Positions 17,028 to 59,666 of a stretch of 64,000 nt of DNA are shown one piece after another. The notes beneath the pieces are model-generated. The model had not been told where the DNA came from and did no database searches. It worked only from the letters and a program-made list of their open reading frames with translations. Where the stretch lies: assembly GCA_963740185.1 (NCBI GenBank), contig CAVUDH010000015.1:646-64645 (forward strand), written 5' to 3'. The translations under genes and the position numbers were made by a program. Origin of the DNA: an uncultured Verrucomicrobiae bacterium (GTDB lineage: Bacteria; Verrucomicrobiota; Verrucomicrobiia; Chthoniobacterales; JAATET01). Position 1 is the first letter of the stretch; each line of letters begins with the position of its first letter.

Positions 17028-17035
17028 ACGTAACG
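17028..17035. promoter_or_regulatory. ACGTAACG motif copy in the divergent region between the sulfatase (ATG 17026) and the 17131..20268 GH-like gene
   Basis: The plus strand reads cataACGTAACGatatc. It lies 96 nt upstream of ATG 17131 and 2 nt upstream of ATG 17026. Confidence 0.3.
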
Positions 17036-17130
17036 ATATCTATGAGCGATGCGCCGCAAAGCGTCAATCCAGCGACTCCATACTAATCGTTCCTTGTCAC
17101 GCTGTGTTCTCGCATTTACGCCTTCCGCTA

Positions 17131-39293: not shown

Positions 39294-39325
39294 GATTTCC
39301 GCCAATCTGTTCTCGATTTCCGCCA
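39294..39325. promoter_or_regulatory. Perfect 11-bp direct repeat GATTTCCGCCA x2 spaced 21 bp (candidate AraC-type operator)
   Basis: Copies at 39294..39304 and 39315..39325, in the divergent region between the oxygenase (ATG 39195, minus) and the AraC-like gene (39333/39348, plus). Confidence 0.35.
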
Positions 39326-39332
39326 CCTTTGA

Positions 39333-40075
39333 TTGCAGAATTCGACCATGCCTTCGAGTTGGAACGGCTTCACCTACCCCTCGGTGACGGAGCGGGACGT
39401 GGAGCGGGAGATTTATCTAACGAGCGTGGGCCGGATCGCGTATGCGCCTGGCCAATCCTACCCGGCGCCCGGGCATCCACGCCGCTACCAATTCAAGCGC
39501 GGAGGCGCGCGGCGACTCAACGACTTCGCCGTCGTCTGGATCGAACAGGGGCGGGGCCACGTGGAATCCGACGCGACGGGACGACGGCCCTTCCCCGCCA
39601 ACAGCGCGTTGATCCTCCCGCCGGGCGCAGCGCACCACTATGAGCCCGACTCGAAGACGGGGTGGGTCGAGCGATGGATTTGCGCCAACGGGGCGTATCT
39701 GCACCGGCTGAGGACTGAGGGTGTTTTTCCGTCACGTCCGACGCTGCGGATTCTCACGCAGTGGGCGATGCTGAACGACGAATTCGACCGGCTGGGTGCC
39801 CTGGCCCGCGAGGGGTCGCTCCATGTCGCGGGACTCACGCTCGGCTGCCTGGCGCTCGCGCTCGGCCAGCACGAGGAACTCGACGCCGTCGCCGCGCCCA
39901 CCTCCGACCGACGGGACGCCGGAGGTCGCTGCGGCTCTGACGTTCATTCACGCTCATTGCCACCGCGAGTTGACCGTGGATGACGTCGCCCGCCACGTCG
40001 CGATTTCGCGGCGCTCGCTCGAGCGGCGGTTCGCCGAAGCGGGAACGGGCTCGGTCGCCCGGCAGACACGTTGCG
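39333..40075 (+). pseudogene. AraC-family regulator (cupin-like sensor + HTH); frameshifted near 39900 and truncated within the HTH domain
   Basis: Sensor part FAVVWIEQGRGHVESDATGRRPFPANSALILPPGAAHHYEPD. HTH part (other frame) ALTFIHAHCHRELTVDDVARHVAISRRSLERRFAEA. The second helix-turn-helix and the C-terminus are absent. Confidence 0.6.
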
Positions 40076-40747
40076 CGCCGTGTATTCCAGATAAGCCGCG
40101 CTCCAGGCAAAGAGAGCCACCCGGTCCATGTCGGCGGAATTGACCAGCCCGGGTCGGCGGTAACCGGCCCGCCGAGCCTGTTGGAGCGCAATCTGCATGT
40201 TCAGGTAATGGTTGGGCACCGCCCGATGAAACGATGGACGCCACAGCGCGTGCGATGCCGAGACCACGGTGTAGCGATTCCAGTCCAGCCGAAAATGCCC
40301 GCCCGGCCGCGCCCACGGCGTGATGAGGAGATTCGTGATGCCGCGCGCCCGGAGGACACGCTCAAGCTTTCGCCGCCGCGCCTTCCCCTTCCTCCACGAT
40401 CAGCCGATCCACCGTAAAACCCCGCTCGACCACCCGCCGCCGAGCACCCGCGACGACCCGGCCAAAATACCCGTCCTTACGCTCATCGTGATTGGGTGAG
40501 GCCGTTCCCAGGATCGCGATTGTTGAGTCGACGCGTTTCCGGCGGGGAAGTCGCAGGCGGGTCATCATGCGGCCAAGTTCAGGATCGGGTCGATAACCGG
40601 TTTCGCGAACCGCCGCCTCCACCCGAGCCCTTGTCGCTTCGGAAAAGCGGCCCCACCCCCCGCAGCACGTTCGATGCCGTCATTCGCGAACACCCCGCCG
40701 CAACGGCCACTTCCGTCAGACTCACGGACTCCCTTGGTGCTTTCATG
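40076..40747 (-). pseudogene. LacI-family regulator, at least 2 frame changes and 3'-truncated
   Basis: MKAPRESVSLTEVAVAAGCSRMTASNVLRG, ATRARVEAAVRETGYRPDPELGRMMTRLR, STIAILG..RGITNLLITPW..SASHALWRPSFHRAVPNHYLNMQIALQQARRAGYRRPGLV..WSAAYLEY. The sequence then becomes antisense of the AraC gene. Confidence 0.55.
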
Positions 40748-40748
40748 T

Positions 40749-40765
40749 TGATTTACGATAAATCA
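40749..40765. promoter_or_regulatory. Perfect 17-bp palindrome TGATTTA-CGA-TAAATCA (candidate LacI-type operator)
   Basis: It lies 2 nt upstream of the minus-strand ATG at 40747 and 84 nt upstream of the plus-strand ATG at 40849. Confidence 0.4.
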
Positions 40766-40848
40766 TTTTTCGTCCGCTGCCCAGCAATCCCAAGTTGTTG
40801 CGAAGGACGAAAAGAAGGACGTTGGTCGAAATCAACCCCCTCACCCGA

Positions 40849-42442
40849 ATGAAACATTCCCTCATCCTTCTCCTCACCGTCGCGGCGGTGACCGTTACCA
40901 CTTCCGCCCTTCGAGCCCAGAACATCATCGTGGGACACCAGTGCCGCCGCCGGTTACCAAAACGGCACCGGGACTTGGGGCGCTGACAATTTCTGGACCC
41001 CTCCGGCCGGAGCCGACTCAGGGACAACGCTCTCCGCCTGGACCCCCGGTGCCAGCGCGTGGTTCGGAGGCAATTCCTCCGTCGCAGCCACCCCAAATGG
41101 TGACTTCACCGTCACCGTTAGCGGCACCCAGAGCGCGGCGACCGTTCGTCAAATCGTCAATGGCGCCGGCAACTACACGCTCAACGGCGGCACCATCGAC
41201 CTCGGTGCCAGTGCCTCCGGCCTGCGATCCGACACCGGCACTTTCACCGTTAATTCAGTCGTCACCGGTACGGCGGGCACGGTTCAACTCAACACGGCGG
41301 GCGGCAATCTCGTCATCGGCGGCAACAATACGTTCACGGGACAGGCTGAAATCCGCGGCACTGCCGGAACGACCATTCAAATGACCAACGCCAACGCCCT
41401 TGGCGCCAACGCCAACGTTAATTTTTTCAACTCCAGCGTGACCCTCGACGTGAATGGCAACGACGTCACGAAGTCCGCCACCGTCGGAAATAACCAGACC
41501 GCCTTCATCGGCAACTCCAGCGCGACGGCGGCCACGTGGAGCGGAGGGCATCACTGCGGCAGCAGGCTCGGCGAACCTCCGGGCGGGCGGCACCGGATCG
41601 CAGCTCACCGTGAGTGGCAACATCGGGTCGTCCATCGAATCGGTCCAATCCCTCGAAAACGGCACACTGCGCCTTTCCGGCGTCAACGCCCATACCGGCA
41701 CCACCGTGGTTCGCCCGGGCGGCACTCTCGTCGTCAGCAACGCAGCCGCTCTCGGGACGACCGGCAGTGGCACGTTCGTGCAGGCCACCTCCACGCTCGA
41801 CCTCAACGGCTTCGACGTTGGCACCGAGGAGATCACGCTCCAGCAAGGAGCCGCCCGGCTCGTCAATGAAGGCGCATCGACCGCCACGGTCGGCGGTGAC
41901 GTTAACCTCATCGGCAGTAACCTCGAGATCGGCGGAGCCAATTCGACCATCGTCAACGGGAACGTCTCCGGAGCTTCCGGTTTCGAGAAAGTCGGCGCGG
42001 GCACCCTTACGTTCAACGGGACGAACACCTTCACAGGCGACGTCTCCGTGGCCGACGGCACCTTCACCCTCGGAGCCAGCGGCTCGATGAGTTTCGTTAT
42101 CGGCGTCTCCGGCACCAATAACCTGATGCAGTGGTGTCGGCACGACTCTCCTGAACGGCTGCTTTCGTCTTCGATCTCGGTAGCGCGGGCACCACGCCGG
42201 GCGACTCTTGGACAATCGTTGACGTTGGCTCGCTCGACGAGACCTTCGGCGGTACCTTCAATGTCGCCGGCTTCACCGACACCGGCGGCAACCAGTGGAC
42301 GCGCACCTTTGGCGGCGCGGATTACAACTTCAGCGAGAGCACCGGGATGTTGACGGTTGTCCCTGAGCCCGAAGTCTGGTCCCTGCTCGTTGCTGGCTTT
42401 GGTTTGCTCGTCATCCTCCGTCGCCGGGCCGTTCGAGCCTGA
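40849..42442 (+). pseudogene. Autotransporter-associated beta-strand-repeat protein with PEP-CTERM anchor; at least 4 frame changes
   Basis: Signal MKHSLILLLTVAAVTVTTSALRAQ. Repeats of the type GTLTFNGTNTFTGDVSVADGTFTLG, NTFTGQAEIRGTAGTTIQMTNANALG and LRLSGVNAHTGTTVVRPGGTLVVSNAAALG. C-terminus is LTVVPEPEVWSLLVAGFGLLVILRRRAVRA-stop 42442. Confidence 0.75.
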
Positions 42443-42476
42443 GACGAGTCGGGCTCTCACATCCTCCCCCAAAGCT

Positions 42477-43270
42477 ATGCGCCAGCCCTCGCAAATCCGT
42501 TGCGCCCGCGTGCCGACTCCACTCGGCGCTTTCACGCTCATCGAACTGCTCGTTGTCATCGGAATTATCGCCATTTTGGCCACCCTCATCGTCCCGGTCC
42601 TCGGGAGCATGCGGTCAGCGGCCCGAGACCTCGGAAAACGTCTCGCGCCTTCGGCAGAACGGGGTCGCGATCCACGCCTACGCTACCGAGCACCAGGGGC
42701 AGATCTTTTCGCTCTACGGCCCCACCCGGCGCTGGCCGGTCCTCGTCGCTCCCTACCTCGGAATCGCTTCCGAAGAACTCTCCAGCGTCGACGCCAACAA
42801 CCTCGTTTATTCCCAGAAGATGATCCGCAACGCCGAGAACGATTACATCACCGGGGAAATGCAGTCCGGTGAACGCGCGCCCGGTCCGGTCGGGACTTTC
42901 CTCCTCAATAAGTTCTTCACCCAGTATCCCAATAACCCCAACGGCGGCGTGAATCGGTGGAAGTTCATGCAGCTCGACCGCCCGTCCCAGACCCCGATGC
43001 TCGCGCTCTCGGCGTCGAATGCCGGCTGGTGGCTCAACGTCGAAACACTCAACAACGCAGCCACCGACCTTGGTTTCAAAGGACCGACCCACCCGCACGG
43101 CGCGCTTCCCGGGAAGGGCGGTCGAATGACCTACCTCATGTTCGACGGGTCGGCTCAGACCAAGCCGGCATTCTGGCCCTTCGGCGACCCCGAGTGGCCA
43201 ACTCCGTGGAAAGCCTTCCACCCGTCCGGCAACGACGCGCCCGACAGCATCACCGCCGCCGGCCCCGGTA
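42477..43270 (+). pseudogene. Prepilin-type N-terminal methylation domain protein (DUF1559-like); frame change near 42630, 3' end uncertain
   Basis: GAFTLIELLVVIGIIAILATLIVPVLG, then (other frame) NVSRLRQNGVAIHAYATEHQGQIF, ..GGRMTYLMFDGSAQTKPAFW. The only stop codons before the next gene are in a third frame (taa 43268). Confidence 0.7.
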
Positions 43271-43300
43271 AAACGGCATCTCCACCCCTACGCGTTTCTC

Positions 43301-43989
43301 ATGAACACCACCCGCCTTCTGCTCAAGACCCTCCTCGTCACGTACGGCACTCTGTCCGATCATCCGCGCCGCCGACGTCAGTTGGTCGCTCGACAGCGAA
43401 GTCCTGCGTCGACGGTCCCATCGGCCCCGTTCCCGCCCTGCAGAGCGAACCCGCCGGGCATCCGCTGATCTTCGGACGCAGCGGAGACGCACCTTCCCCG
43501 AAGCGCTTTTTTCCGGTCGCCGCCGACGGCGCGCTGCGATTCAGCGGCAAGGCGACCGCCTACGTCCCGGAGTTTTGGAAAAACCCGTCCGGCTTCACGG
43601 TCACCGTCGACGTCGAATTCGACGACGTTTCGACGGACCAAACCGTCGTCCTCGTCACCAACGTCTTCGATCTGCGACTGACCATCACCAACGGCGAGCC
43701 CGCGCTCACGCTCCACGCCATGCGCCCTCCGAAGCCCGCCGTCGCCGCACGGATCGACGGCATTGAGGCCGGACGCCTCTACCACGTCATCGCGTCGGTC
43801 TCCGACACCGGCGAGGTCTCGATCCACCTCGACGATGGCTCGACCGCCACCGCCGACCTCGAAGGCTCCTCCTCTCCGTGGGGCGCCTACCCCGACCTCT
43901 ACGTCGGCAGCGCCAACCCCGATAAGTTCTCCCGCCCGCTCCGCGGCTCCATTCACGCGCTTTCGATCTCGACCGGAACCGCCCAGTAA
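43301..43989 (+). pseudogene. Secreted LamG/concanavalin-like domain protein; about 2 frame changes in the first 100 nt
   Basis: MNTTRLLLKTLLVTYGTL (signal). Then RFSGKATAYVPEFWKNPSGFTVTVDVEFDDVSTDQTVVLVTNVFDLRLTITNGEPALTLHA..GRLYHVIASVSDTGEVSIHLDG..LYVGS..FSRPLRGSIHALSIS. Confidence 0.6.
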
Positions 43990-44014
43990 CACCCCCGCCG
44001 CGTCCCCGATCCGC

Positions 44015-45736
44015 ATGGCCCACCCCATCGTCGAATACGGCGTCATCGCCGCCTACCTCGTCCTAATGTTGGTCGTCGGCGTGGTATTCAAAAATTTCAA
44101 CAAAACCGCGGGCGACTACTTCCGCAGCGGCTGTCAGGGAACGTGGTGGATGGTCGGAATGAGTTCGTTCATGGCCGGGATCAGCGCGCTCACCTTCACG
44201 GGCAACGGCGGAGCGGCGTTCGAAGCGGGTTGGAGCGTCGTTGTGATTTACATCGCGAATTGCTGCGCGCTCCTGCTGCACGTGTTTTTCCTGGCGCCGT
44301 GGTTTCGACAGCTTCGCGTCACGACGTTCCCCGAGGCCGTGCGACTGCGCTTCGGCCCGCTCACGCAGCAGGTCTACGCCGGCATTTCGATCCTGCTCTT
44401 CGTCATCACCGGCGCGGTCTGGCTGTTCGGCCTCGCCATTTTCACCGCCAGCGCCTTCGGGTTGCCGATCCACCTCACCATCCCGGTGCTCGGACTGGTC
44501 GTGCTTTTCTACTCCACCACCGGCGGCAAGTGGGCCGTGATGGCGGCGGATTTTGTCCAGGGGCTCATCATGATGGCGATGACGCTGCTCCTGTCGCTGC
44601 TGTGCCTCATCCACTTCGGCGGCGTTGGCGGCATGCTCGCAGCCGTCGAAGAAGCCGGGCTCGGCGAGACCTTCGCCATGTTCAAAAGCGCGGATGCCTT
44701 CCCGCTCTCGAGCTACACGTGGCAGTGGGCACTGGCGGTCTTCGCCGTGCAGACCATCCTGCTCTGCTCGGCCCAGCAGGGCGTCAAATATTTCGCCGTC
44801 AAGGACGGGCGCGAGGCCCGCCGAGCCGCGCTGTTGACCATGATCCTCATGGCGCTCGGCTCGCTCATGTGGTTCATCCCGCCCATTGCGGCGCGCCTGC
44901 TCTTCGAGAACGAAGTGCTGGCCTCGGGAATGACGAAACCCGCCGAAGCCGCCTTCGCCATCGTCACCGTGAACCTTCTCCCCACGGGTCTCATCGGCAT
45001 GATGATCGTCGCCATGTTCTCCGCGACGATGAGTTCCATGGACGCGGGCCTCAACGGCAACGCCGCGATCTGCGTGCGCGACATCCTGCCGCCCATCTGC
45101 CGCTTCCTCGGCCGCGCGACACCCAGCGAGCAGGCCCAGGTGAACATCGGCCGCGTCGTCACCGTCGGCTTCGGCCTCATCGTCATTTGGCTCGCGCTAC
45201 GGCTTTCCCAGATGAAGGGCTCGGGTGTGTTCGAGTTCGTCATCGGCCTCGGCCCCATCCTCATCGTCCCGATGTCGATCCCGCTCCTGCTGTGTCTCTT
45301 CGTGCGGCGCGTTCCCGCGTGGGCCGCCATCGCGTCCATGGCGGTGACGCTCGTTCCATCGTGCCTCGCGATGTTCGCCGAGACGCCGTGGACCCTCGCA
45401 TCGAAAACGCTCTGGTCCGTCGTCACCGGCGTCGGCGTCTTTGCGCTTTCCGGCATTTTCTGGTCGCGCGCGAGCGCCGACTACCGTGCGCAGGTTGGGC
45501 AATTCTTTGACCTTATGCACCGACCGGTCGATTTCGCCGCAGAAGTCGGCGAATCCAACGACCGCACGCAACTCGTCATCCTGGGCCGGTTTGCGCTGGT
45601 GATCGGCGTCTTCATCGCGCTGCTGCTGCTCGTTCCGAATGATCCCACGGGTCGACTTTGCATCCTTGGCCTCGCTCTCTTTCTCGCCACCGTCGGTGCC
45701 GTGATGCTGCGGGCCGCCAGCCCTCGCCCGACTTAA
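44015..45736 (+). CDS. Sodium:solute symporter family (SSF) transporter, intact
   Basis: 574 aa, 13-14 TM helices. GDYFRSGCQGTWWMVGMSSFMAGISALTFTGNGGAAFEAGW, FYSTTGGKWAVMAADFVQG. Confidence 0.85.
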   Translation: MAHPIVEYGVIAAYLVLMLVVGVVFKNFNKTAGDYFRSGCQGTWWMVGMSSFMAGISALTFTGNGGAAFEAGWSVVVIYIANCCALLLHVFFLAPWFRQLRVTTFPEAVRLRFGPLTQQVYAGISILLFVITGAVWLFGLAIFTASAFGLPIHLTIPVLGLVVLFYSTTGGKWAVMAADFVQGLIMMAMTLLLSLLCLIHFGGVGGMLAAVEEAGLGETFAMFKSADAFPLSSYTWQWALAVFAVQTILLCSAQQGVKYFAVKDGREARRAALLTMILMALGSLMWFIPPIAARLLFENEVLASGMTKPAEAAFAIVTVNLLPTGLIGMMIVAMFSATMSSMDAGLNGNAAICVRDILPPICRFLGRATPSEQAQVNIGRVVTVGFGLIVIWLALRLSQMKGSGVFEFVIGLGPILIVPMSIPLLLCLFVRRVPAWAAIASMAVTLVPSCLAMFAETPWTLASKTLWSVVTGVGVFALSGIFWSRASADYRAQVGQFFDLMHRPVDFAAEVGESNDRTQLVILGRFALVIGVFIALLLLVPNDPTGRLCILGLALFLATVGAVMLRAASPRPT

Positions 45737-45738
45737 TC

Positions 45739-48700
45739 ATGATCTCCGCCCGACTCCTTGCCGCTCTCCTGCTCGTCACGACGTCCGTGCCGACGATCTT
45801 CGCCGCCTCGTCGGTGGAACTTCAGACCCGAGAAGAATCGCAATCACCCAGCGGCTGGCTCGGCTTCCGCATCCGTTTTCCCGAGGGCGTACGCCCCGGC
45901 GCCGGGCAGCCGACCATCCCGTTGGTCGGGAGCCCGCTCTTCCGCGCCTTCCTCGCACCCGACGCTCGCACCGTGAAGCTCGACCTTCGGATCACGCGCC
46001 GAGAGCCACTCTCCGCCCTTGGCGAGACGCCCAACGTCGTCGGTCTCCTGCTCGCCGGCTCGAGCCGAACCAATGGTATCACCTTGCCTTCGCTTGGGAC
46101 GTCGAGCGGGACGAGTTCACGATCTACCTCAATGGCGTCCAGCAGGAATCCGCCCGCGTCGTCGACGTGGGCTTCTGGACCGAAGGCGCACCCGACCTGC
46201 GAGGACCGGTCACGCTCGGCGCACCCGACGCCGCCGTGGAGATCGAAGACGCCCACCTCAGCGCCGAACCCCTCGATCCAGACCGACTTGCCGCCGACAC
46301 GGCTCCGCTTCCCGCGCTCGCGGGCGAAGGCCGCACGCTTTACACCGACCCGCTCGACCTCACGCCCTGGAAAAAGACGCCGCTCTACGAAAACGACTTC
46401 GACCAGCCATTGGACGTTGTCCGCGAAAGCGACGCCCCGTCGGCTCGCGAAGACCAGTGGATTCTCGAAGGTAATGGCCAGGCCATCACCCGCGACGGCG
46501 GTCTCGTGCTTTCGTCCAGCCACACCGAGCCGCCGCCCTACTTCGACGGCGAAAAGACCGTTATCACCGGGTCGGATCACGTCGTCCTGTGGCTGAACCG
46601 ACGTTTTCCCGACGGCATCCTTGTCGAATACACGATGCAGCCCCGCGACACAAATCGCGGGCTCCACATCCTCTTCTTCAGTGCCAGCCACCCGGACGGC
46701 GGCACGATCTTCGACCGGACGACAAAACCCGCAACGGCGTCTTCTCGAATTACATCCAGAATCCCGACGAGCTTCTCGCCTACCACATCTCGCTCTGGGC
46801 CTCACCCTATCGCCCCCGCGGCACGTCGAACCTCCGCAAAGACGGCACCTTCTCCCTGTTGGCCGTCGGCGACGACCGCATTACCGGCCAAGGCGATCGC
46901 CCCTATTCGGTTCGCGTGCTCAAGGACGGTCCACTCATTCAAGCTGAAGTCGATGGGCGAAAGATCATCGATTTCGAGGACACGGATCCCATCTTCACCG
47001 ACGGCTACCTCGGATTCCGCATCATGGGCGACTCCGGATCCGTCACCCTGCGCGATCTCAAAGTCTGGAAGCTCGAGCCCCCGGTCGACGAACCGACCAG
47101 CAGCATCGTCGTCCCCGAGATCACCGCCCCGCATCCCCGCCTTTTCGTCGACGCCGACGAACTCGCGACGATGAAGCGCCGCGTCGAGGACCGCCAGTTC
47201 CCTCATGCCCTCGCGTGGGACGCTCTCCGCGAGGAACTCGAGAAACCGGAGAACCCGCGGCCCTACGTCGGCTCCGAAGGGAAGACGTTTTTCAAGATCG
47301 CGAATTTCCAGGGCGGTCGCGCCCGCGATCTCGCGCTTGCGTGGTGGATCACCGGAGACGCCGCCTACGCCGACCGCGCCGTCGCTCTCATCCGCGCCTG
47401 GGCCTCCGCCCGCCCACTCCCCGGCACGGAACTCTCCAATGCGAACGCTCGGGACACACCGAACTTCGGCATCTGGATTGCTCGCGGCACGCTCCCCTTT
47501 TTCTACGCCGCCGACTTGCTCTGGAGCGCCCCCGCCTTCACCGACCAGGACCGTGCCGTCGTCTCCGAGTGGGCGCTCGCCCTCGTTCCACTCATCAAAG
47601 CCAGCAAGGCAAAATGGAAATCCGCCGACTACTACGGCCAGCAGAATTTCAATAATCACCTCGCCACCCACACCCTCGGCCTCGCCGCGCTCGGCTCGCT
47701 CCTCGGCGACCGCGACCTCGTCCAATTTGCCCTCGACAGCGACGCGAACGACCGCGACTACCGCGAGCTTTTGGAAGGCCTCATCCTCCTGCCCGGCGAT
47801 ACCGTCCACCGCCGCGAAAACCCCAACGCTCCCGCGCCGCAAGCCGGTGAGATCTACGACCGCTACCGCCACAAGACCGGTCCGCGGAAGGGCATGCAAT
47901 ACACCAACCTCAGCCTCAATTTGCTCGGAATGACCGCCGAGATCGGGCGCCACCTCGGTCTCGATCTGTGGGGCACCACCGCTCCGGGCGGTGAGAACTT
48001 GCGGCTGCCCCACGAGTTCTACTCCGACTTCTACCGCCTCGACACCACCGACATCAAAGGCGGCTTCTACTCCGGCGAGAACGACCGCCTCGGGCAGGCG
48101 GGTGACTCCGTCGCCACCTTCGAACTCGGCTTCAGCCAATTCCCCGACAGCGCGCCGCTCCGAGACCTACTCTGGGTCATGGACCGTCCCCTTCACGTCG
48201 ATCACCTCCTCGGTCCCACCGTTCTCACGCACGGAGTCGTCTTCCCCGAGCAGGCCGGTCTCGCCGCCCGCGCCACTCCCGAGACGCCCCCGGCAAATCC
48301 CGTCGACGCATCCGTCGTGGTCCCCAAGATCACCAAGCCCCACCCACGCCTCGTCCTCGACGCCGCCGGACTCGATGCCATGAAAGCTCGCGCCCTTTCC
48401 GGCGACGATCCTTGGGTCACCGCTTGGGACGCACTCCGTCGGCGTGCGGACGACGCCTTGGAGCGCCAAGGAAAATTCATACCCTACGTCGGCGGCGACC
48501 CCGCCCGTTTCTACCGCACGCTACTTCCCCAGGCCAAAGCCGCCCGCGACCTTGCGCTCACCTGGTGGATCACCGGAGACGACCGCTACGCCACCGCTGC
48601 CAACGAGATCATCGCCCGCTGGGTTTCGGCCCGCCCGCTCCCCGGCACGACGATCCCTGAAGACACGGACACGCTGAACAAGGGCATGATGATCCCGCGC

Positions 48701-49507
48701 AGTATCTTTCCCCTCATTTGGGCGCACGACATCCTCGCCGGCAAGGACGCTGTCCCGAGCGACACCTCCACCGCTTTCATCGCCTGGCTTCCCGAGCTTC
48801 TCGACCCCATTGAGCACGGTGCTCAGCTTTGGCACGAAAACAACTTCTTCGACCGGCAGTATTACCAAAATCACCAGATCGGTGAGACGATGGGCCTCAT
48901 CGCGATCGCGATCGCGACCGGCGACTCGGACCTGCTCCGCCACGCCGTTAATTCCGGCGAGGATGAGCGCGATTTCCTCGACCTCCTCGCCGGGCTCATC
49001 CTGGCTCCCGGCGACGAGGTTTACTACCGCGAACCCCCCGGCACTGCGGAGCCTCAAGCCGGTGAGATCATCGACCGCTATCGACACTTCGAACTCGCCG
49101 GACACTTCGGAGACTACGTCACTCATCCGAACCGCGGCACCCAATACAGCCTCCTCTCCACCAGTCTGCTCGCCCTCTCCGCCCAAATGCTCGCCACCAA
49201 CGGGCTCGACCTTTGGGATTACGTGGCGCTCGGCGGCGAGACTCTTCGGCAGCCCTTCGAGTTTTATGCCCCGCTCTACGCGGCCAACGACTCCTCGCTG
49301 CAGGGCGGATTCTACGCCGGCGAGACCGACCGACTCGGCAAGGGCGGCGACTCTCGGGCGATTTTCGAATTGGGTGCTCACCACTTCCCCGATTCGTCCG
49401 CCATCGCGAGCGCTTTGATCCATCCGAACCGCGCCCTTGAAGTATCCGAACTTCTTGGCAGCGAGATATTGATCTTCGGAGCGAGTGTCGATCCACCTCC
49501 CGAATAG
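45739..49507 (+). pseudogene. Secreted about 1250-aa multidomain protein: LamG-like + DUF1961-like beta-sandwich + two tandem polysaccharide-lyase-like (alginate-lyase/heparinase-N alpha/alpha-toroid type) modules; frame changes near 46070 and 46715, intact thereafter
   Basis: Signal MISARLLAALLLVTTSVPTIFA. WYHLAFAWDVERDEFTIYLNGV (LamG). DQWILEGNGQAITRDGGLVLSS..VVLWLNRRFPDGILVEYTMQP..LAYHISLW..RGTSNLRKDG..GYLGFRIMG (DUF1961-like). Module 1 is at 47102..48244 and module 2 at 48305..49507; each has PHPRL, ARDLALxWWITGD, NNH/QNH and GEIxDRYRH. Confidence 0.6.
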
Positions 49508-49569
49508 TTTCCCCTCAACGCCGAAGCCAATCTGGCTCCGGCCCAACCCCCAACCCCACAACCGCCCCC

Positions 49570-50868
49570 ATGAAAAAACCCTCCATCGCAGTCAGCTTTG
49601 CGCTGCTCATCTCCGCGTCCATCGTTCAATCACAAGTCGTTCCAGCAATCACCAACCCGCAACCGCGCATCTTTCTCAACGCCAGCGAGATTGCCACCAT
49701 CCGGGCCCGGGTTTCTTCGGGGATTCAGCCGCACGCCTCGGCTTACGCTTTCCTGAAATCGGACACGATCGCCAACATTCCATCATCGACTCGGCTGACG
49801 CCCTACCTGGGCAACGATGGCCGGTCTTTTTACAACGTCGCAACCCTCCACGGCGGATTTGCCCGGGATCTCGCCATCGCCTATCAGGTCTCCAAAGGAA
49901 TCGAGACGCCGGCGCAAACCACGGCTTACGCGAGGAAAGCGGCCAACATTCTTCGAAACTGGGCCTCCGGCTCACCCCTCCCGGGAACCGCGCTCGACCC
50001 CGGCTCGCCGGCCATCGCCAATCACGGGATGTGGTTGAGTCGTGGGATCATTCCCTTCGCTTACGCCTACGATCTGATTGGCGACTACACCGGCGACGGT
50101 GCCCTTTCGACCGCCGACCGGCTGGCCATCGAAACGTGGTTGAACGCCTTGGTTCCCCCAATTCGTGCGTCCCTCGCCGACTGGCACTCCAACCGGTACT
50201 ACAATTTTCAGAACTACAACAATCACCTCGCTGCCGACATCGCGGCTCTCGTGGCCATCGGCTATGCGGTCGGCGACCGTTCCCAGGTTCAGTGGGCTAT
50301 CAGCGTCTCGATTGCGACAAATCCGCGCGATTGGGTTGCGCTGCTCAAGGGCCTCATCCTTCGCCCGGGCGATCCAACGCACCACCGCGAGAAAGCTGGT
50401 GCGCCGTTGGTTCAGGATGGCGAGATCTACGACCGCTACCGTCACTACACCGGGCCGCTCAAGGGTCTCCAATACTCTACGCTCGCCCTCACACTCCTGA
50501 GCGTGCCCGCCGAAATTTGTCACCGCAACGGCCTGGATCTCTGGAATTACTCGGCCAGCACCGGTGAGACGCTGCGCCTGGCGTGGAGCTACTACGCGGA
50601 CTTTTATCGGCTCCAGTCCGCGACCATCAAAAGCGGCTTCTACGCGGCGGATGGAAACGGGAACTACTCCGCGGCGAACGACGAAAGTTGGCGGATCGGG
50701 ATTGCCGGCGACGACGTCGCCGTGTTCGAGCTCGCCCGCACTCGACTCCCATCCTCGGCGGAACTCAACTCGTTGATTCTCGATCTCCAATCGCGGTCAA
50801 ATCCCGCGCGCCACGAGCAGACATCCCTCCTCCTCGGCCCCGTTGCCCTGACCCACGGGACGCCGTGA
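49570..50868 (+). CDS. Secreted polysaccharide-lyase-like protein (third copy of the module in 45739..49507), intact
   Basis: Signal MKKPSIAVSFALLISASIVQS. PQPRIFLNASEIATIRARV, ARDLAIAYQVS, QNYNNHLAAD, QDGEIYDRYRHYTGPLKGLQYSTLAL, NGLDLWNY. Confidence 0.6.
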   Translation: MKKPSIAVSFALLISASIVQSQVVPAITNPQPRIFLNASEIATIRARVSSGIQPHASAYAFLKSDTIANIPSSTRLTPYLGNDGRSFYNVATLHGGFARDLAIAYQVSKGIETPAQTTAYARKAANILRNWASGSPLPGTALDPGSPAIANHGMWLSRGIIPFAYAYDLIGDYTGDGALSTADRLAIETWLNALVPPIRASLADWHSNRYYNFQNYNNHLAADIAALVAIGYAVGDRSQVQWAISVSIATNPRDWVALLKGLILRPGDPTHHREKAGAPLVQDGEIYDRYRHYTGPLKGLQYSTLALTLLSVPAEICHRNGLDLWNYSASTGETLRLAWSYYADFYRLQSATIKSGFYAADGNGNYSAANDESWRIGIAGDDVAVFELARTRLPSSAELNSLILDLQSRSNPARHEQTSLLLGPVALTHGTP

Positions 50869-50990
50869 GACTGCTCCAAGGTATCGCTCGCGTTCACTGA
50901 ACGCCATCGCCAGAAAACCCAAAGACCCGCGAGTCGCGCGCTCGCGCCGTCACCAATTCGAAGCCATCAATCGAAGTCCTGCCCTCGTGC

Positions 50991-52274
50991 CTATCGAAGC
51001 CGGATCGAAGCCGAGCGCCCGTGGGCGTCGAGGCCTTCGATGTCGGCGAAGGTTTGGATGGTTTTCAGCGATTTCTTGAGGCTCTTCTCGTCGTAGCGAA
51101 CGAGGCTGGTGCGGCGTTGAAAAGCGTCTGCGGTCAGGCCGGGGAAGGATTTTCCCGCTCCACCGGTCGGGAGTTCGTGGCTGGGCCCGGCGAGGAAATC
51201 TCCCGCAACGACGGGGCTGATTCCGCCGATGAAGATGCACCCGGTGGTCGTGAGCCGGGTAGCAATGGCGTCGGGTTTGGCCGTGGCGATGGCGACGTGT
51301 TCGGCGGCGAATGCGTTGGCGAGATCGACCGCTTGATCGAGGTTTTTCGTCTGGACCAGGGCGCAATCCTCGAGCGCTTCCCGAAGGTGCTCCGCCCGCG
51401 AAGAGGCCGCGGCCTGGCGCTTGACCGACGCCGCGACCGCTTTCAAGAGCCTGGCGCTTGGGGTGAGGAGGATGGCAACGCTCCCGTGGCCGTGCTCGGA
51501 TTGGGCGAGGAGGTCGGCGGCGATCCAGTCGGGGTTCGCGGCGGCATCGGCGATGACGAGAACCTCGGACGGGCCGGGTAGGAGGTCGATGGCGACCCGG
51601 CCGACGGCCTGCCGTTTGGCTTCGACGACGTAAGCGTTCCCGGGACCGAAGATCTTGGCGACGGGGGCGATGGTCTTCGTTCCGATGGCGAGAGCGGCGA
51701 CGGCCTGGGCTCCACCGACACGGTAGATCTCGGTCGCGCCACAAAGCGAAAGCGCGGCGAGCAGCGCCGGGTGGACTTTTTTGTCGGGACCGGCCGGGGT
51801 GACTGCGACGATCTCGGGACAACCGGCGGTGGCGGCGAGGGTGCAGGTCATCACGGCGGTGGAGACGAGCGGCGCGGTGCCGCCGGGGACGTAAATGCCG
51901 ACGCGCTGAAACGGATCGAACCGCTCGCCGACGGTGGCACCTTGTTGATTTTTCATCGACCAGTTCTTGCGGAGGCTGGCTTTGGCGAAGGCGCGGACGT
52001 TGGTCCGGGCAGCGGTGATGGCGCGGCGGGTGGCGGCGGGGAGCTCGGCCAAGGCGGCGGTGATTTCGTCGTCGGTGACGCGGAGCCTGGCGGCGGTGAG
52101 TTTGGGGCCGCCGAATTTTTCGGTGAAGCGCAGCAGGGCCCGGTCGCCCTCGGTTTCGATCGCGGCGAAAATTTCGGCGACGGTCGCCTGGACTTCGGGT
52201 GCGGGAACGGCCCGGCGGTCGAGGGTGGCGAGGGCGTGGGCGTAGTTGCGGTCAGTGGGACGGTGGATGCGCAT
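50991..52274 (-). CDS. hisD: Histidinol dehydrogenase
   Basis: 427 aa. ALLRFTEKFGG, GIYVPGGTAPLVSTAVM, GPGNAYVVEAKRQ, DLLAQSEHG, FIGGISPVVAGDFLAGPSHELPTGG. Confidence 0.95.
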   Translation of the reverse strand: MRIHRPTDRNYAHALATLDRRAVPAPEVQATVAEIFAAIETEGDRALLRFTEKFGGPKLTAARLRVTDDEITAALAELPAATRRAITAARTNVRAFAKASLRKNWSMKNQQGATVGERFDPFQRVGIYVPGGTAPLVSTAVMTCTLAATAGCPEIVAVTPAGPDKKVHPALLAALSLCGATEIYRVGGAQAVAALAIGTKTIAPVAKIFGPGNAYVVEAKRQAVGRVAIDLLPGPSEVLVIADAAANPDWIAADLLAQSEHGHGSVAILLTPSARLLKAVAASVKRQAAASSRAEHLREALEDCALVQTKNLDQAVDLANAFAAEHVAIATAKPDAIATRLTTTGCIFIGGISPVVAGDFLAGPSHELPTGGAGKSFPGLTADAFQRRTSLVRYDEKSLKKSLKTIQTFADIEGLDAHGRSASIRLR

Positions 52275-53622: not shown

Positions 53623-54783
53623 CTAGTCGAGCAGATCGGCGCAGACTTTGGCGGCGTCGAGGTGGGTCTGGGCGAAGCTGCGGGCGGCGGCGGAGTGGTG
53701 GTCGTAGTTTGCCGAAACCTTGGCGATGGCGGCGGCGGATTCCTCGAGGGTCTTGAACGCGATGATGCCGCTGCCGGACGGCAGGTGATCCGTCCAGCCG
53801 GTGTCCTGGACAACGACGGGTTTACCCATGGCCAAGTAACAGGCGCTGCGGCACGAGAACCAGCCGCTGTGGCTTTTCACGTAGCCGTTTTTCGCGATGC
53901 TCCACTCGGCTTTGCTGTTGCCGAGGAAGTCGTGGTAGGTGGCGTAGTCGGGAAGGTGGACGTCGGGCTCGATGATCTGCCAGCCGGCGGCTTCGATCCG
54001 TTCCGTGGGGCGGGAGCGCCCGACGCCCTGGCCCATGGCGAGGACGAATTTCTCGTCGGTGTGCCGGGGCAGATCGAGGAAGCGGAGAAATTCGAGGTCC
54101 TTGTTGCCGTAGGTGTTGCCCTCGAATTCCTGGGGCGGGTAGCTGGCCCAATTCATGACGGTGGTCCAGGCGTCGCGGGCGACGTGGGTGGCGGTGGGCG
54201 GGAGGAGATTTTTTCGCCACCAGTCGATGGCGATGGGTTGGACGGTGGGTTTCCAATCGAAACCGGCCGTGGGGACAAGGCAACCGGGTTGGCCGACGTT
54301 CAGGCCGAAGGTGTGGTGTTCTTCGTGGGCGCGGAGGTGGTCGATGTAGCCTTGTCGGTCAAGATCGGTGAGGCCGATGTGGGTAAACATCGGATCGCCA
54401 TCGACGAAGAGCTTGCGGGGGATGGCGGCGGTGCAGTCGCGCAGCCAGCACGCTCCGGAGACGTTGACGAGGACGTCAGCTTCGCGGATCACGCGCTCGG
54501 CGTCGTCGCCGGCCGGGCCGTGGTATTTGCCGTCGGCTTCGTTGCGGTAGATCCAACGATCGCCGAGGTCGAACTCGTGCATGACCCGCTCGAGGTAGTT
54601 GACGTTATGGATGCAGTCGGCGGAGGGCTCCTGGGCGACGGGATCGTAGGCCCAGGTCGCGGTGTCCTCGAGATACCAGACGTCGTGACCCAGCTCGCGG
54701 AAGCCGAGGACGTACTGGATGTAGTCCCAAGTGACGCCTCCGAAGGCGTAGTTGCCGATGAGGCCGGTGACGAGGATGCGCAT
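53623..54783 (-). CDS. Glycosyltransferase-like protein (CgeB/GT-B-like C-terminal half), paralog of 54901..56034
   Basis: MRILVTGLIGNYAFGGVTWDYIQYVLGFRELGHDVWYLED; FVDGDPMFTH; AEWSIAKNGYVKSHSGWFSCRSACYLAMGKPVVVQDTGWTDHLPSGSGIIAF. The 670-aa ORF extension upstream of this ATG looks non-coding. Confidence 0.55.
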   Translation of the reverse strand: MRILVTGLIGNYAFGGVTWDYIQYVLGFRELGHDVWYLEDTATWAYDPVAQEPSADCIHNVNYLERVMHEFDLGDRWIYRNEADGKYHGPAGDDAERVIREADVLVNVSGACWLRDCTAAIPRKLFVDGDPMFTHIGLTDLDRQGYIDHLRAHEEHHTFGLNVGQPGCLVPTAGFDWKPTVQPIAIDWWRKNLLPPTATHVARDAWTTVMNWASYPPQEFEGNTYGNKDLEFLRFLDLPRHTDEKFVLAMGQGVGRSRPTERIEAAGWQIIEPDVHLPDYATYHDFLGNSKAEWSIAKNGYVKSHSGWFSCRSACYLAMGKPVVVQDTGWTDHLPSGSGIIAFKTLEESAAAIAKVSANYDHHSAAARSFAQTHLDAAKVCADLLD

Positions 54784-54793
54784 CTTTCTAGCT

Positions 54794-54827
54794 GGTGATT
54801 GGTGACTTGTGATTGGTGATTGGTGGG
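54794..54827. repeat. Heptamer tandem repeat TGATTGG / TGACTTG / TGATTGG / TGATTGG in the 117-bp divergent promoter region
   Basis: ggTGATTGGTGACTTGTGATTGGTGATTGGtggg. It lies 11-44 nt upstream of ATG 54783 (minus) and 74-107 nt upstream of ATG 54901 (plus). Confidence 0.7.
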
Positions 54828-54900
54828 AATGCGGGCGGCTCTCTCGCTTCGCTCGATTTGCCGTGCGCTGCAAGGTGGGAGCTTGTGTTAGTTTGTGGCG

Positions 54901-57271: not shown

Positions 57272-59666
<2,395 letters not shown>

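What the first reader, a model, noticed from the sequence alone, without database searches (positions are those of the whole stretch)
47102..50868. Three tandem copies of a polysaccharide-lyase-like alpha/alpha-toroid module, two fused and one free-standing
Modules at 47102..48244, 48305..49507 (same polypeptide) and 49570..50868 (separate gene with its own signal peptide) share an ordered set of blocks. The blocks are PHPRL(F/V) or PQPRIF; ARDLAL(A/T)WWITGD or ARDLAIAYQVS; (Q)N(F/Y)NNH or YYQNH; GEI(Y/I)DRYRH; and (L/N)GLDLW. The NNH and helical N-terminal blocks resemble the alginate-lyase (PF05426) / heparinase-N type fold. The fused protein additionally carries LamG-like and DUF1961-like beta-sandwich domains. 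A Na+/solute symporter lies immediately upstream. Serial duplication with divergence suggests sub-functionalisation towards different linkages of one complex anionic glycan.
Basis: partly seen in the sequence, partly recalled or inferred. Interest (0 to 1): 0.55.

Follow-up and report, generated by a model that had tools for sequence, protein, structure and literature searches.

The report
Three tandem uncharacterised polysaccharide-lyase modules
Two adjacent genes in a Verrucomicrobia-like genome encode three old, diverged copies of an unstudied sugar-chain-cutting (lyase) module that probably targets rhamnose- and glucuronic-acid-containing polysaccharides rather than alginate. It is a solid lead to a possible new enzyme family, not a surprise.

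Summary
Modules M1 (47102-48244), M2 (48305-49507) and M3 (49570-50868) are paralogues, 35-45% identical (E 7e-75 to 3e-109). All match Pfam PF05426 and keep the family's invariant Asn-His, Arg and Tyr. A high-confidence AlphaFold2 model (pLDDT 95) matches only alpha/alpha-toroid lyases (PL5, PL38, PL17 N-domain). Identity to these is 12-18% and TM about 0.6, so this is a distinct, uncharacterised clade: 182 clusters at E<=1e-30, no NCBIfam model, no close solved structure.

The modules are ancient paralogues, not local duplicates. Another metagenome carries a two-module protein whose first and second modules pair with M1 and M2. Relatives in Verrucomicrobiota, Planctomycetota, Bacteroidota and Clostridia are usually multi-copy. 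They sit beside GH88/GH105 unsaturated-glucuronyl hydrolases, rhamnose mutarotase, acetylesterases, sulfatases, DUF1961 and sodium:solute symporter (SSF) genes. This points to a rhamnose/glucuronate glycan, not alginate.

The fused gene (45739-49507) is broken by two 1-nt deletions (about 46053 and 46707-46725). Repairing them gives an intact signal peptide-LamG-DUF1961-M1-M2 protein of 1257 aa. Frame breaks also hit katG, a sulfatase and neighbouring genes, so they are probably assembly errors.

The parts
45739..49507 (+). Fused lyase gene: signal peptide, LamG-like, DUF1961, M1, Pro/Thr/Ala linker, M2. It is frame-broken twice in this assembly. Frame 1 changes to frame 0 at about 46053, and frame 0 changes to frame 2 between 46707 and 46725. 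The repaired product is 1257 aa.
   Evidence: Three-frame translation. Adding one base at each break gives a single ORF. The repaired N-terminus aligns without gaps to intact 456-497 aa LamG+DUF1961 proteins at 50% identity. It also aligns to P0038, an intact LamG-DUF1961-lyase protein.
45826..46380 (+). LamG-like (Laminin_G_3) beta-sandwich domain; the boundaries are approximate. It contains the first frame break, at about 46053.
   Evidence: PF13385 at 1.1e-6, 29.3 bits against a cutoff of 27.6. The hit appears only after repair and covers residues 109-155. The sister contig L001 has an extra A at 46053/46054 that restores 'LLLSRLEPNQWYH', matching homologues.
46452..47030 (+). DUF1961 (YesU-like) beta-sandwich domain, containing the second frame break (46707-46725).
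   Evidence: PF09224 is split in the raw sequence: profile positions 15-98 in ORF 46167-47174 and 94-203 in ORF 46589-49507. After repair it is one stretch at 4.6e-25. The match to YesU (1oq1) rises from 5e-7 to 3.5e-19, with 'FDP' restored.
47102..48244 (+). Lyase module M1. QNFNNH at 47642-47659, GEIYDRYRH at 47846-47872, QYT (putative catalytic Tyr) at 47897-47905.
   Evidence: PF05426, alignments, motif coordinates. Closest relatives are P0021 at 58% and P0016 module 1 at 52%.
48305..49507 (+). Lyase module M2. QYYQNH at 48857-48874, GEIIDRYRH at 49061-49087, QYS at 49142-49150. It has a 10-residue insertion after RYRH.
   Evidence: The closest relative is P0016 module 2 at 47%.
49570..50868 (+). 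Free-standing lyase gene M3 with its own signal peptide. QNYNNH at 50209-50226, GEIYDRYRH at 50419-50445, QYS at 50470-50478.
   Evidence: PF05426 at 1.7e-16. AlphaFold2 model with pLDDT 95.4 and pTM 0.95. Foldseek hits PL5, PL38 and PL17.
44015..45736 (+). Sodium:solute symporter (SSF). Its stop codon lies 2 nt before the lyase ATG, so it is probably in the same operon.
   Evidence: PF00474 at 4.2e-39, junction sequence. SSF genes flank the lyases in 8 related loci.
42477..43989 (+). Prepilin-type N-methyl protein (42477 to about 43270, frame-broken near 42640), followed by a LamG-like 'x298' protein (about 43330-43989).
   Evidence: Three-frame translation shows 'FTLIELLVVIGIIAILA'. The two halves match separate genes that flank the two-module lyase P0016 in L056 (E 6e-37 and 4.5e-20). 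x298 is conserved next to SSF in L002-L004.
40849..42442 (+). PATR (autotransporter-type beta-strand repeat) protein with a PEP-CTERM-like C-terminus. It is frame-broken three times.
   Evidence: PF12951 at 1.4e-12 and TIGR02601. Frames shown. A PATR gene also sits among the lyases in L053, L057 and L059.
39345..40420 (+). AraC-family regulator, frame-broken, upstream of the cluster.
   Evidence: AraC_binding at 3.6e-7 in frame 0. An HTH-like 'ISRRSLERRFAEA' lies in frame 1.

Best explanation
The locus encodes three secreted or periplasmic beta-eliminating polysaccharide lyase modules. They belong to an uncharacterised clade of the PF05426 alpha/alpha-toroid superfamily.

**Proposed mechanism (inferred from PL38 and PL5).**
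- Asn218, helped by Gln214 and Arg291, neutralises the C6 carboxylate of the uronate in subsite +1.
- Tyr302 and/or His219 abstracts H5.
- Tyr302 protonates the leaving O4.
- The product carries a delta-4,5-unsaturated uronate at its new non-reducing end.

**Architecture.** In vivo the first gene most likely makes a 1257-aa protein: signal peptide, LamG, DUF1961, M1, M2. The beta-sandwich domains would hold the polymer. M3 is a separate enzyme. The three modules are old paralogues kept together. They probably cut different linkage or substitution contexts, or differ in endo versus exo mode, on one heteroglycan.

**Substrate and uptake.** The co-transcribed SSF symporter probably imports the products. 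Judging from what consistently accompanies this clade elsewhere, the substrate is most likely a rhamnose- and glucuronate-containing glycan, often O-acetylated and in marine relatives sulfated. Candidates are ulvan-like rhamnoglucuronans or Rha-alpha-1,4-GlcA motifs, not alginate.

**Shown:** paralogy, fold, conserved residues, architecture, synteny. **Inferred:** lyase chemistry, substrate class, intactness of the fused gene.
For: **Paralogy and family membership.**
- Module paralogy is shown.
- PF05426 scores are above the gathering threshold.

**Fold.**
- The AlphaFold2 model has pLDDT 95.4.
- Its only good PDB neighbours are toroid lyases.
  - PL5 A1-III: E 7e-7, TM 0.60/0.70.
  - BoPL38: E 7e-7.
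  - PL17 N-domain: TM 0.61.

**Catalytic residues.**
- Profile and phmmer alignments put N218-H219 on the NNH of 3nfv. They put R291 and Y302 on BoPL38 R292 and Y298.
- BoPL38 N242, H243, R292 and Y298 are the experimentally defined catalytic set (bioRxiv 10.1101/2024.12.11.627697).
- Across 133 family modules the residues are almost invariant: E285 133, R289 133, N218 129, H219 128, R291 127, Y302 127. All are kept in M1, M2 and M3.

**Age of the paralogues.**
- M1 is 52% identical to P0016 module 1 and M2 is 47% identical to P0016 module 2. Within either protein the two modules are only 38-43% identical.

**Conserved neighbours in 48 genome loci.** The lyase family itself has 110 copies in these loci. 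Numbers of loci carrying each neighbour:

| Neighbour | Loci |
|---|---|
| rhaM (rhamnose mutarotase) | 12 |
| SASA esterase | 10 |
| GH88-like hydrolase | 9 |
| PF07470 hydrolase | 7 |
| SSF symporter | 8 |
| Sulfatase | 7 |

- The PF07470 neighbours are closest to the ulvan unsaturated 3S-rhamnoglycuronyl hydrolase 4ce7 (3e-57).
- The GH88-like neighbours are closest to GH88 unsaturated glucuronyl hydrolases 3wiw (4e-118) and 1vd5.
- The Bacteroides PUL in L011 reads HTCS, GH88, lyase, SusC, SusD, rhaM, BACON-lyase, BACON, DUF1961.

**Link to DUF1961.**
- DUF1961 is a separate gene in 6 related loci.
- It is fused on either side of the lyase in L015 and L016.
- It is fused as LamG-DUF1961-lyase in P0038.

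**Intactness of the fused gene.**
- One base at each break restores gap-free alignment to intact homologues, with no stop codons.
- L001 carries the missing base at break 1.
- Frame breaks also split katG, a sulfatase and an MFS transporter elsewhere in the window.
- They also split the AraC, PATR and prepilin genes nearby.
- This pattern points to assembly indels.
Against: - No enzyme of this clade has been assayed, so the chemistry and substrate are inferences.
- The 64-kb window itself has no GH88/GH105, rhaM or SASA gene. The substrate inference therefore rests on relatives that are only 27-42% identical.
- Similarity to solved lyases is only at superfamily level: 12-18% identity and partial profile hits.
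- The same fold and residues can support C5-epimerisation. BoPL38 also epimerises, and dermatan-sulfate epimerase is a weak fold hit.
- I could not inspect active-site geometry in the model.
- The frameshifts could be real, in which case only M3 and possibly an N-terminally truncated M1-M2 product would be made. That product would lack a signal peptide.
- The neighbour sets vary (sulfatases in some loci, esterases in others), so the clade may span several substrates.
Confidence: 0.55

Rival explanations
1. They are genuine alginate lyases, as the Pfam name suggests, degrading mannuronate/guluronate polymers.
For: PF05426 is named 'Alginate lyase'. The best PDB neighbours are alginate lyases of PL5, PL38 and PL17.
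Against: - Identity to those enzymes is only 12-18%, and profile hits are partial.
- No neighbourhood, in the window or in 48 related loci, shows alginate-pathway partners.
- The recurring partners are instead GH88/GH105 unsaturated glucuronyl hydrolases, rhaM, acetylesterases and sulfatases.
- From my own knowledge, alginate systems release unsaturated monomers with exo-lyases and do not use GH88/GH105 or rhamnose genes.
- The family occurs in gut Bacteroidales, rumen Clostridia and freshwater PVC bacteria.
Confidence: 0.08
2. The fused gene is a true pseudogene in a decaying locus. Only M3 is functional, and the three-module arrangement is a relic.
For: There are two frame breaks in the fused gene, plus breaks in the adjacent AraC, PATR and prepilin genes. 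That is about 8 breaks in 7.4 kb. No independent near-identical intact copy was found.
Against: - Apart from the two missing bases the ORF is flawless. It has no stop codons, aligns without gaps to intact homologues, and keeps all their invariant residues.
- M1 and M2 keep every family-invariant residue.
- Frame breaks also split katG, a sulfatase and an MFS gene elsewhere in the window.
- The sister contig L001 has the missing base at break 1. It is itself indel-ridden over 40.0-47.9 kb, the stretch that contains all of the window's locus frame breaks (39.3-46.75 kb).
- Together these suggest a region that is hard to assemble.
Confidence: 0.2
3. The modules are not lyases. They are uronate C5-epimerases, or non-catalytic binding proteins built on the same toroid scaffold.
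For: BoPL38 also epimerises mannuronate. Human dermatan-sulfate epimerase is a weak fold neighbour (E 5e-3). PF16332 (DSE-like_N/DUF4962) hits the relative P0007 weakly.
Against: The complete Asn-His/Arg/Tyr set is conserved. The consistent pairing with unsaturated-uronyl hydrolases GH88/GH105 only makes sense if unsaturated ends are produced. The modules are secreted and sit in catabolic PUL-type contexts with SusC/D or SSF transporters.
Confidence: 0.07
4. They are glycosaminoglycan-type lyases (heparosan, heparin, chondroitin or hyaluronan).
For: GH88 neighbours are closest to a GH88-annotated structure (3wiw) that I recall, from memory and unchecked, to be a heparin-specific unsaturated glucuronyl hydrolase, and to streptococcal chondroitin-disaccharide hydrolases. 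Sulfatases occur in 7 loci. PL35, PL8, PL21 and PL12 appear as weak fold or profile hits.
Against: The rhaM association in 12 loci, together with the ulvan-type GH105 neighbour (4ce7), is not expected for GAGs. Related loci have no hexosaminidase or GlcNAc/GalNAc catabolic genes above the 3-locus recurrence threshold. The PF16889 hit is below threshold.
Confidence: 0.1

Closest known systems
CAZy PL38 (Bacteroides ovatus BoPL38, PDB 8bdq/9fhu; also BACOVA_01668, 3nfv)
   Same: It is a single-domain alpha/alpha-toroid of about 380-400 aa. The Asn-His pair and the Arg...Tyr pair align: N218-H219 with N242-H243, R291 with R292, Y302 with Y298. It is the best or joint-best Foldseek hit.
   Different: Identity is 14-16% and TM only 0.55-0.59. 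Profile hits cover two short stretches (E 8e-9). This clade has its own 100%-invariant GEIxDRYR motif. The gene context is rhamnose, GH88/GH105 and DUF1961 rather than alginate.
CAZy PL5 (Sphingomonas A1-III, 1qaz; AlgL; Smlt1473)
   Same: It belongs to the same Pfam family (PF05426), has the same toroid fold and gives the best TM score (0.60-0.62 on the query, 0.70-0.73 on the target). It shares the NNH motif and a catalytic Tyr.
   Different: Identity is 15-16%. The profile matches only about 36 residues of A1-III (E 1e-5). The modules are about 60-80 residues longer.
CAZy PL17 N-terminal domain (Alg17c 4nei; BoPL17 8bdd)
   Same: The N-terminal toroid aligns over about 210 residues (E 2e-9), with TM 0.61.
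   Different: PL17 chains are about 705-738 aa. From my own knowledge, the extra C-terminal part is a beta-sandwich domain that contributes to the active site. The window modules have no such domain.
Rha-alpha-1,4-GlcA lyases PL27 and PL42, and ulvan lyases PL24/25/28/37/40
   Same: They are candidates for the same biological job, cutting a rhamnose-to-uronate linkage. The downstream partners are the same kind, GH105/GH88 unsaturated glucuronyl hydrolases.
   Different: No sequence or fold match to these families was seen in any search here. From my own knowledge, PL42 is a beta-propeller. If the substrate guess is right, this is an independent scaffold for that chemistry.
Bacillus subtilis YesU (DUF1961, PDB 1oq1)
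   Same: The middle domain of the fused protein matches YesU at E 3.5e-19, and the family profile matches at 2.2e-30. From my own knowledge, yesU lies in the rhamnogalacturonan operon beside a GH105 and RG lyases, which is again a rhamnose/uronate context.
   Different: YesU is a stand-alone protein of 223 aa with unknown function. Here the domain is preceded by LamG and fused to two lyase modules.

Membership tests
Pfam PF05426 (Alginate_lyase superfamily) | HMM score above the gathering threshold (22.2 bits) | tested here: met
   The 972-aa ORF scores 119.6 bits over 3 stretches, and M3 scores 60.9 bits.
Alpha/alpha-toroid polysaccharide lyases (PL5/PL38/PL17-N type) | All-alpha toroid fold | tested here: met
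   The AlphaFold2 model has pLDDT 95.4 and pTM 0.95 and is all helical. All 46 Foldseek hits with E<=1e-3 listed are toroid lyases.
Alpha/alpha-toroid polysaccharide lyases (PL5/PL38/PL17-N type) | Catalytic Asn-His, Arg and Tyr present | tested here: met
   N218-H219, R291 and Y302 align to 3nfv NNH and to BoPL38 R292 and Y298. They are conserved in 127-129 of 133 family modules and in M1, M2 and M3. The 3-D geometry was not inspected.
Alpha/alpha-toroid polysaccharide lyases (PL5/PL38/PL17-N type) | Beta-elimination activity producing unsaturated uronates | not testable with these tools
   The only support is indirect: GH88/GH105 neighbours in 16 related loci.
CAZy PL38 | Significant similarity over the whole catalytic domain to PL38 members | tested here: inconclusive
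   The profile against BoPL38 gives E 8e-9 over two short stretches, and 3nfv gives 1e-12 over about 150 residues. Identity is 14-16%. dbCAN/CAZy HMMs were not available.
CAZy PL5 | Significant similarity over the whole catalytic domain to PL5 members | tested here: not met
   The profile against A1-III gives E 1e-5 with a best stretch of 36 residues. The single-sequence phmmer search found no PL5 hit.
CAZy PL17 | Two-domain architecture: toroid plus C-terminal beta-sandwich | tested here: not met
   The modules are 381-432 aa and all-alpha, and end right after the toroid.
Pfam PF16889 (Heparinase II/III N-terminus) | HMM score above the gathering threshold (22 bits) | tested here: not met
   13.8 bits, E 0.038.
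Pfam PF09224 (DUF1961 / YesU) | HMM score above threshold (25 bits) as one domain | tested here: met
   The two raw fragments score 38.9 and 33.2 bits. After repair of the frame break it is one stretch of 88.6 bits. YesU matches at E 3.5e-19.
Pfam PF13385 (Laminin_G_3) | HMM score above threshold (27.6 bits) | tested here: met
   29.3 bits, but only after repair of break 1. There is no hit in the raw frame-1 ORF.
Alginate lyase (EC 4.2.2.3 / 4.2.2.11) | Activity on alginate, or an alginate-utilisation gene context | tested here: not met
   The context test failed: no alginate-pathway partners were found, and rhaM, GH88/GH105 and esterases were found instead. Activity cannot be tested here.

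The most novel reading that the evidence does not exclude
This clade is a new polysaccharide-lyase family that uses the PL5/PL38-type toroid to cleave L-rhamnosyl-(1->4)-uronate linkages. The target would be ulvan-like, rhamnoglucuronan-type or Rha-capped GlcA glycans. That job is so far known only from unrelated folds.

DUF1961 (YesU), a domain with a solved structure but no known function, would be its dedicated partner. It would act either as a rhamnose/uronate-specific binding module or as a second catalytic module. The window protein LamG-DUF1961-M1-M2 would then be a multi-activity enzyme.
Probability: 0.3. Interest if true: 0.6.

Novelty: new variant of a known kind. Interest (0 to 1): 0.42.

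Why it matters
If the inference holds, it defines a sizeable enzyme family: at least 182 clusters at 50% identity at E<=1e-30, and 736 at E<=1e-10. The family spans gut Bacteroidales, rumen Clostridia and aquatic PVC bacteria. Its members are currently mislabelled 'alginate lyase'.

It names concrete candidate substrates: ulvan-like glycans, rhamnoglucuronans and gum-arabic-type Rha-GlcA.

It also gives the first functional handle on DUF1961/YesU, through gene fusions in three different orders.

There is a practical caution for annotation as well. This assembly carries frequent single-base indels, so its apparent pseudogenes should not be taken at face value.

Tried and rejected
- **L001 as an arbiter of the frameshifts.** L001 is the only near-identical contig. 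It is 99.7-99.8% identical over M2 and M3. Over 40.0-47.9 kb it has 12-18% mismatches and many indels. It is useful only at break 1, where it carries the missing base.
- **NCBIfam.** No model hits any module, the Bacteroides relative or DUF1961.
- **Literature.** 'DUF1961' occurs in one unrelated paper. Searches for PF05426 with rhamnose, for GH88 with rhamnose mutarotase, and for PL43-46 gave nothing relevant. I found no characterised member of the clade.
- **Partner genes in the window.** tblastn found no rhaM, GH88/GH105, SASA or 2-hydroxyacid dehydrogenase in the 64 kb.
- **The 534-562 aa ORF coupled to free-standing LamG-DUF1961 genes.** I tested whether it is a cryptic lyase. It is not (hhalign probability 0.3, no Pfam hit).
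- **Position of break 1.** I first placed it at 46066. The alignment to homologues and to L001 moves it to about 46053.
- **Promoter and terminator scan.** Nothing above the shuffled background.
- **First AlphaFold2 model.** With only 11 sequences it had a disordered catalytic loop. It was replaced by the 50-sequence model.

Full report
**1. Observation**

The + strand between 46.6 and 50.9 kb holds a 972-aa ORF (46589..49507) followed, after 62 nt, by a 432-aa ORF (49570..50868).

- M1/M2: 43% identical, E 3e-94.
- M1/M3: 45% identical, E 3e-109.
- M2/M3: 35% identical, E 7e-75.

All quoted sequence blocks are present at the stated places.

Each module begins with the same 'S-x-VVP-x-IT-x-P-x-PR' motif. 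In M3 the motif follows a signal-peptide-like N-terminus. In M2 it follows a Pro/Thr/Ala linker. In M1 it follows a 7-residue linker after DUF1961. The module boundaries are therefore sharp.

Pfam PF05426 matches the long ORF (2.2e-34, three stretches) and M3 (1.7e-16). PF16889 is sub-threshold at E 0.038. The upstream gene is an SSF symporter (4.2e-39) whose stop codon is 2 nt from the lyase ATG at 45739.

**2.

DUF1961 is split between two ORFs in different frames. Profile positions 15-98 lie in ORF 46167-47174 and positions 94-203 in ORF 46589-49507. The signal peptide and a LamG-like segment lie in a third frame starting at 45739.

Adding one nucleotide at each of two sites yields a single 1257-aa ORF. 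After repair:
- DUF1961 becomes one stretch (4.6e-25).
- Laminin_G_3 passes its threshold (29.3 against 27.6 bits).
- The match to YesU (1oq1) rises from 5e-7 to 3.5e-19.

The repaired N-terminal 455 residues align without a single gap across both junctions to intact, free-standing LamG+DUF1961 proteins of 456-497 aa. These share 50% identity over 98% coverage.

The homologues show that break 1 lies at about 46053. There the near-identical contig L001 carries an extra A that restores '...LLLSRLEPNQWYH', matching the homologues' 'SRLE..QWYH'. Break 2 lies between 46707 and 46725.

The homologues end at '...KVWKLEPPKK*'. The window instead continues 'LEPPVDEPTS|SIVVPEIT...' straight into M1, with no room for a signal peptide. 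The fusion is therefore real. An independent intact LamG-DUF1961-lyase protein (P0038, 817 aa) aligns to residues 113-834 of the repaired protein.

**3. Are the breaks real?**

A GC3 frame plot and three-frame translations show about eight frame breaks between 39.3 and 46.75 kb:
- AraC regulator: 2.
- PATR/PEP-CTERM protein: 3.
- Prepilin-like protein: 1.
- Lyase gene: 2.

The breaks are not confined to this locus. Elsewhere in the window:
- katG is split. The first peroxidase domain lies in 57272-59017 and the second in another frame at 58818-59663.
- A sulfatase is split (3111-4040 and 4025-4504).
- An MFS_2 transporter is truncated to its C-terminal half.

L001 is 99.7-99.8% identical to the window over M2 and M3, yet it has 12-18% mismatches and many indels over 40.0-47.9 kb. 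The noisy regions of the two assemblies overlap. The lyase ORF otherwise has no stop codons and keeps every invariant residue of its homologues. I therefore judge assembly indels about four times more likely than true pseudogenisation. This is an inference.

**4. Fold and catalytic residues**

A first AlphaFold2 model built on 11 sequences was mediocre (pLDDT 78). A model built on 50 family members is excellent (pLDDT 95.4, pTM 0.95, all helical).

Foldseek against the PDB returns only toroid polysaccharide lyases among its strong hits:

| Family / structure | E-value or rank | TM-score |
|---|---|---|
| PL5 A1-III | E 7e-7 | 0.60-0.62 on query, 0.70-0.73 on target |
| PL38 BoPL38 | E 7e-7 | 0.55-0.59 |
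| PL17 N-domain | | 0.61 |
| PL39, PL35, PL15, PL8 | lower ranks | |

Identity to all of these is 12-18%.

A family profile against PDB sequences gives only partial, superfamily-level hits:
- 3nfv: 1e-12 over about 150 residues.
- BoPL17: 2e-9.
- BoPL38: 8e-9.
- A1-III: 1e-5.

Those alignments place N218-H219 on the NNH of 3nfv. They place R291 and Y302 on BoPL38 R292 and Y298. For BoPL38, crystallography, QM/MM and mutagenesis assign these roles (10.1101/2024.12.11.627697):
- N242 binds the carboxylate.
- H243 is the base for anti-elimination.
- R292 distorts the substrate.
- Y298 is the base for syn-elimination and the acid.

In 133 family modules, E285 and R289 are invariant. N218 (129), H219 (128), R291 (127) and Y302 (127) are nearly invariant. 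M1, M2 and M3 keep all of them.

**5. The family and its architecture**

An exhaustive profile search of 1.84 billion representatives finds 182 clusters at E<=1e-30, 736 at E<=1e-10 and 2965 at E<=1e-3. There is no NCBIfam model.

True two-module proteins recur: P0013, P0014, P0015 and P0016.

In an NJ tree and identity matrix of 133 modules:
- M1 is closest to P0021 (58%) and to P0016 module 1 (52%).
- M2 is closest to P0016 module 2 (47%).
- M3 groups with P0084, P0020 and P0018.
- Modules within one protein are only 38-43% identical.

The M1-M2 fusion is therefore old and positionally conserved. The three modules are ancient paralogues rather than local duplicates. The tree has no bootstrap support, so I rely mainly on the identities.

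The module also fuses to BACON, to a BNR-like propeller (P0018), to an x298-type LamG domain (P0021, P0005) and to DUF1961 on either side (L015, L016).

**6. Genomic context and likely substrate**

A scan of one genome per species found 49 loci. They come from Verrucomicrobiota, Planctomycetota, Bacteroidota, Clostridia and a few other groups. None is more than 42% identical to M3.

Clustering all neighbouring ORFs shows 110 family copies in 48 loci, so multi-copy is the rule. Up to six lyase-cluster ORFs stand in a row in Planctomycetes GWF2_41_51. That count comes from single-linkage clustering, so some of these ORFs may be LamG-only proteins.

Recurrent partners are:

| Partner | Loci |
|---|---|
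| SusD | 16 |
| SusC | 14 |
| rhaM (rhamnose mutarotase) | 12 |
| SASA-type acetylesterase | 10 |
| GH88-like hydrolase | 9 |
| PF07470 hydrolase | 7 |
| SSF symporter | 8 |
| Sulfatase | 7 |
| 2-hydroxyacid dehydrogenase | 5 |
| LacI | 4 |
| Prepilin-type N-methyl protein | 4 |
| DUF1961 | 9 |

The PF07470 partner is closest to the ulvan unsaturated 3S-rhamnoglycuronyl hydrolase 4ce7 (3e-57). The GH88-like partner is closest to GH88 unsaturated glucuronyl hydrolases 3wiw (4e-118) and 1vd5 (3e-57).

A Bacteroides PUL (L011) reads HTCS, GH88, lyase, SusC, SusD, rhaM, BACON-lyase, BACONx2, DUF1961.

The PVC-type version matches the window: regulator, PATR protein, prepilin and LamG proteins, SSF, several lyases. 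It is seen in a marine contig (L053) and around P0016 (L056).

Unsaturated-glucuronyl hydrolases only make sense downstream of a lyase. rhaM implies that rhamnose is released. I therefore favour a Rha/GlcA-type glycan that is often acetylated or sulfated, and I reject alginate as the main substrate.

Known Rha-GlcA lyases are PL27 and PL42, and nothing here resembles them. The window itself lacks the hydrolase, rhaM and esterase genes, so this step is inference from relatives.

**7. Verdict**

The finding is real and correctly read as three toroid-lyase modules.

It is best described as a member of an uncharacterised, family-level clade of the PF05426 superfamily. The clade has a conserved multi-copy, multi-domain habit and a newly visible link to DUF1961.

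Its interest is moderate. It is a good candidate for a new PL family and a handle on DUF1961, but not a mechanistic surprise.

Noticed in passing
window 39300-46750, 57272-59663, 2353-4504: Single-base frame breaks are frequent in this assembly. They affect the AraC regulator (2), the PATR/PEP-CTERM gene (3), the prepilin-like gene (1) and the lyase gene (2). They also affect katG (two peroxidase domains in different frames), a sulfatase (3111-4040 and 4025-4504) and an MFS_2 transporter (only the C-terminal half is in frame). Apparent pseudogenes here should be treated with caution.
   Followed up: partly
L001 (ENA ERZ25039505 contig_15113) against window 40066-51036: The contig has mosaic quality. 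It is 99.7-99.8% identical with 0-4 indels over M2 and M3, but has 12-18% mismatches and dozens of indels over 40.0-47.9 kb. This noisy stretch contains the window's own frame-broken region. That suggests strain heterogeneity or a region that is hard to assemble.
   Followed up: partly
window 53626-54795 (-) and 54895-56031 (+): Two divergently transcribed paralogues of about 380-390 aa share 32% identity (E 2e-53). Neither has a Pfam hit, and their function is unknown.
   Followed up: partly
window 40849-42442: A PATR-repeat protein ends in a PEP-CTERM-like sorting signal ('VVPEPEVWSLLVAGFGLLVILRRR'). PATR genes recur inside related lyase clusters (L053, L057, L059).
   Followed up: no
L057 10001-13014; L059 10001-13110: Free-standing LamG+DUF1961 genes, 50% identical to the window's N-terminus, overlap by 4 nt with unknown 534-562 aa ORFs. 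These ORFs have no Pfam hit and are unrelated to the lyase. The clusters also contain a beta-helix protein, a sulfatase, GDSL esterases, SSF, and SDR, GFO/IDH/MocA and 2-hydroxyacid dehydrogenase genes.
   Followed up: partly
L007 and L008/L027 (Planctomycetes bacterium GWF2_41_51): Arrays of up to six consecutive ORFs of the lyase cluster are interrupted by a prepilin-type N-methyl gene and followed by SSF. In L008, LacI, a URO-D-like gene and rhaM lie upstream.
   Followed up: no
window 42477-43989: The long ORF 42553-43989 appears to merge two genes that are separate elsewhere (L056). One is a prepilin-type N-methyl protein and the other an 'x298' LamG-like protein. They are joined by a low-complexity stretch that looks like read-through or another frame problem.
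   Followed up: partly
window 17029-20265 (+), 15530-16909 (-): A 1079-aa protein with a weak GH106 (alpha-L-rhamnosidase) N-terminal hit (1.7e-7) and an intact sulfatase lie about 26-30 kb upstream. They may be part of the same rhamnose-glycan metabolism. This was not examined.
   Followed up: no
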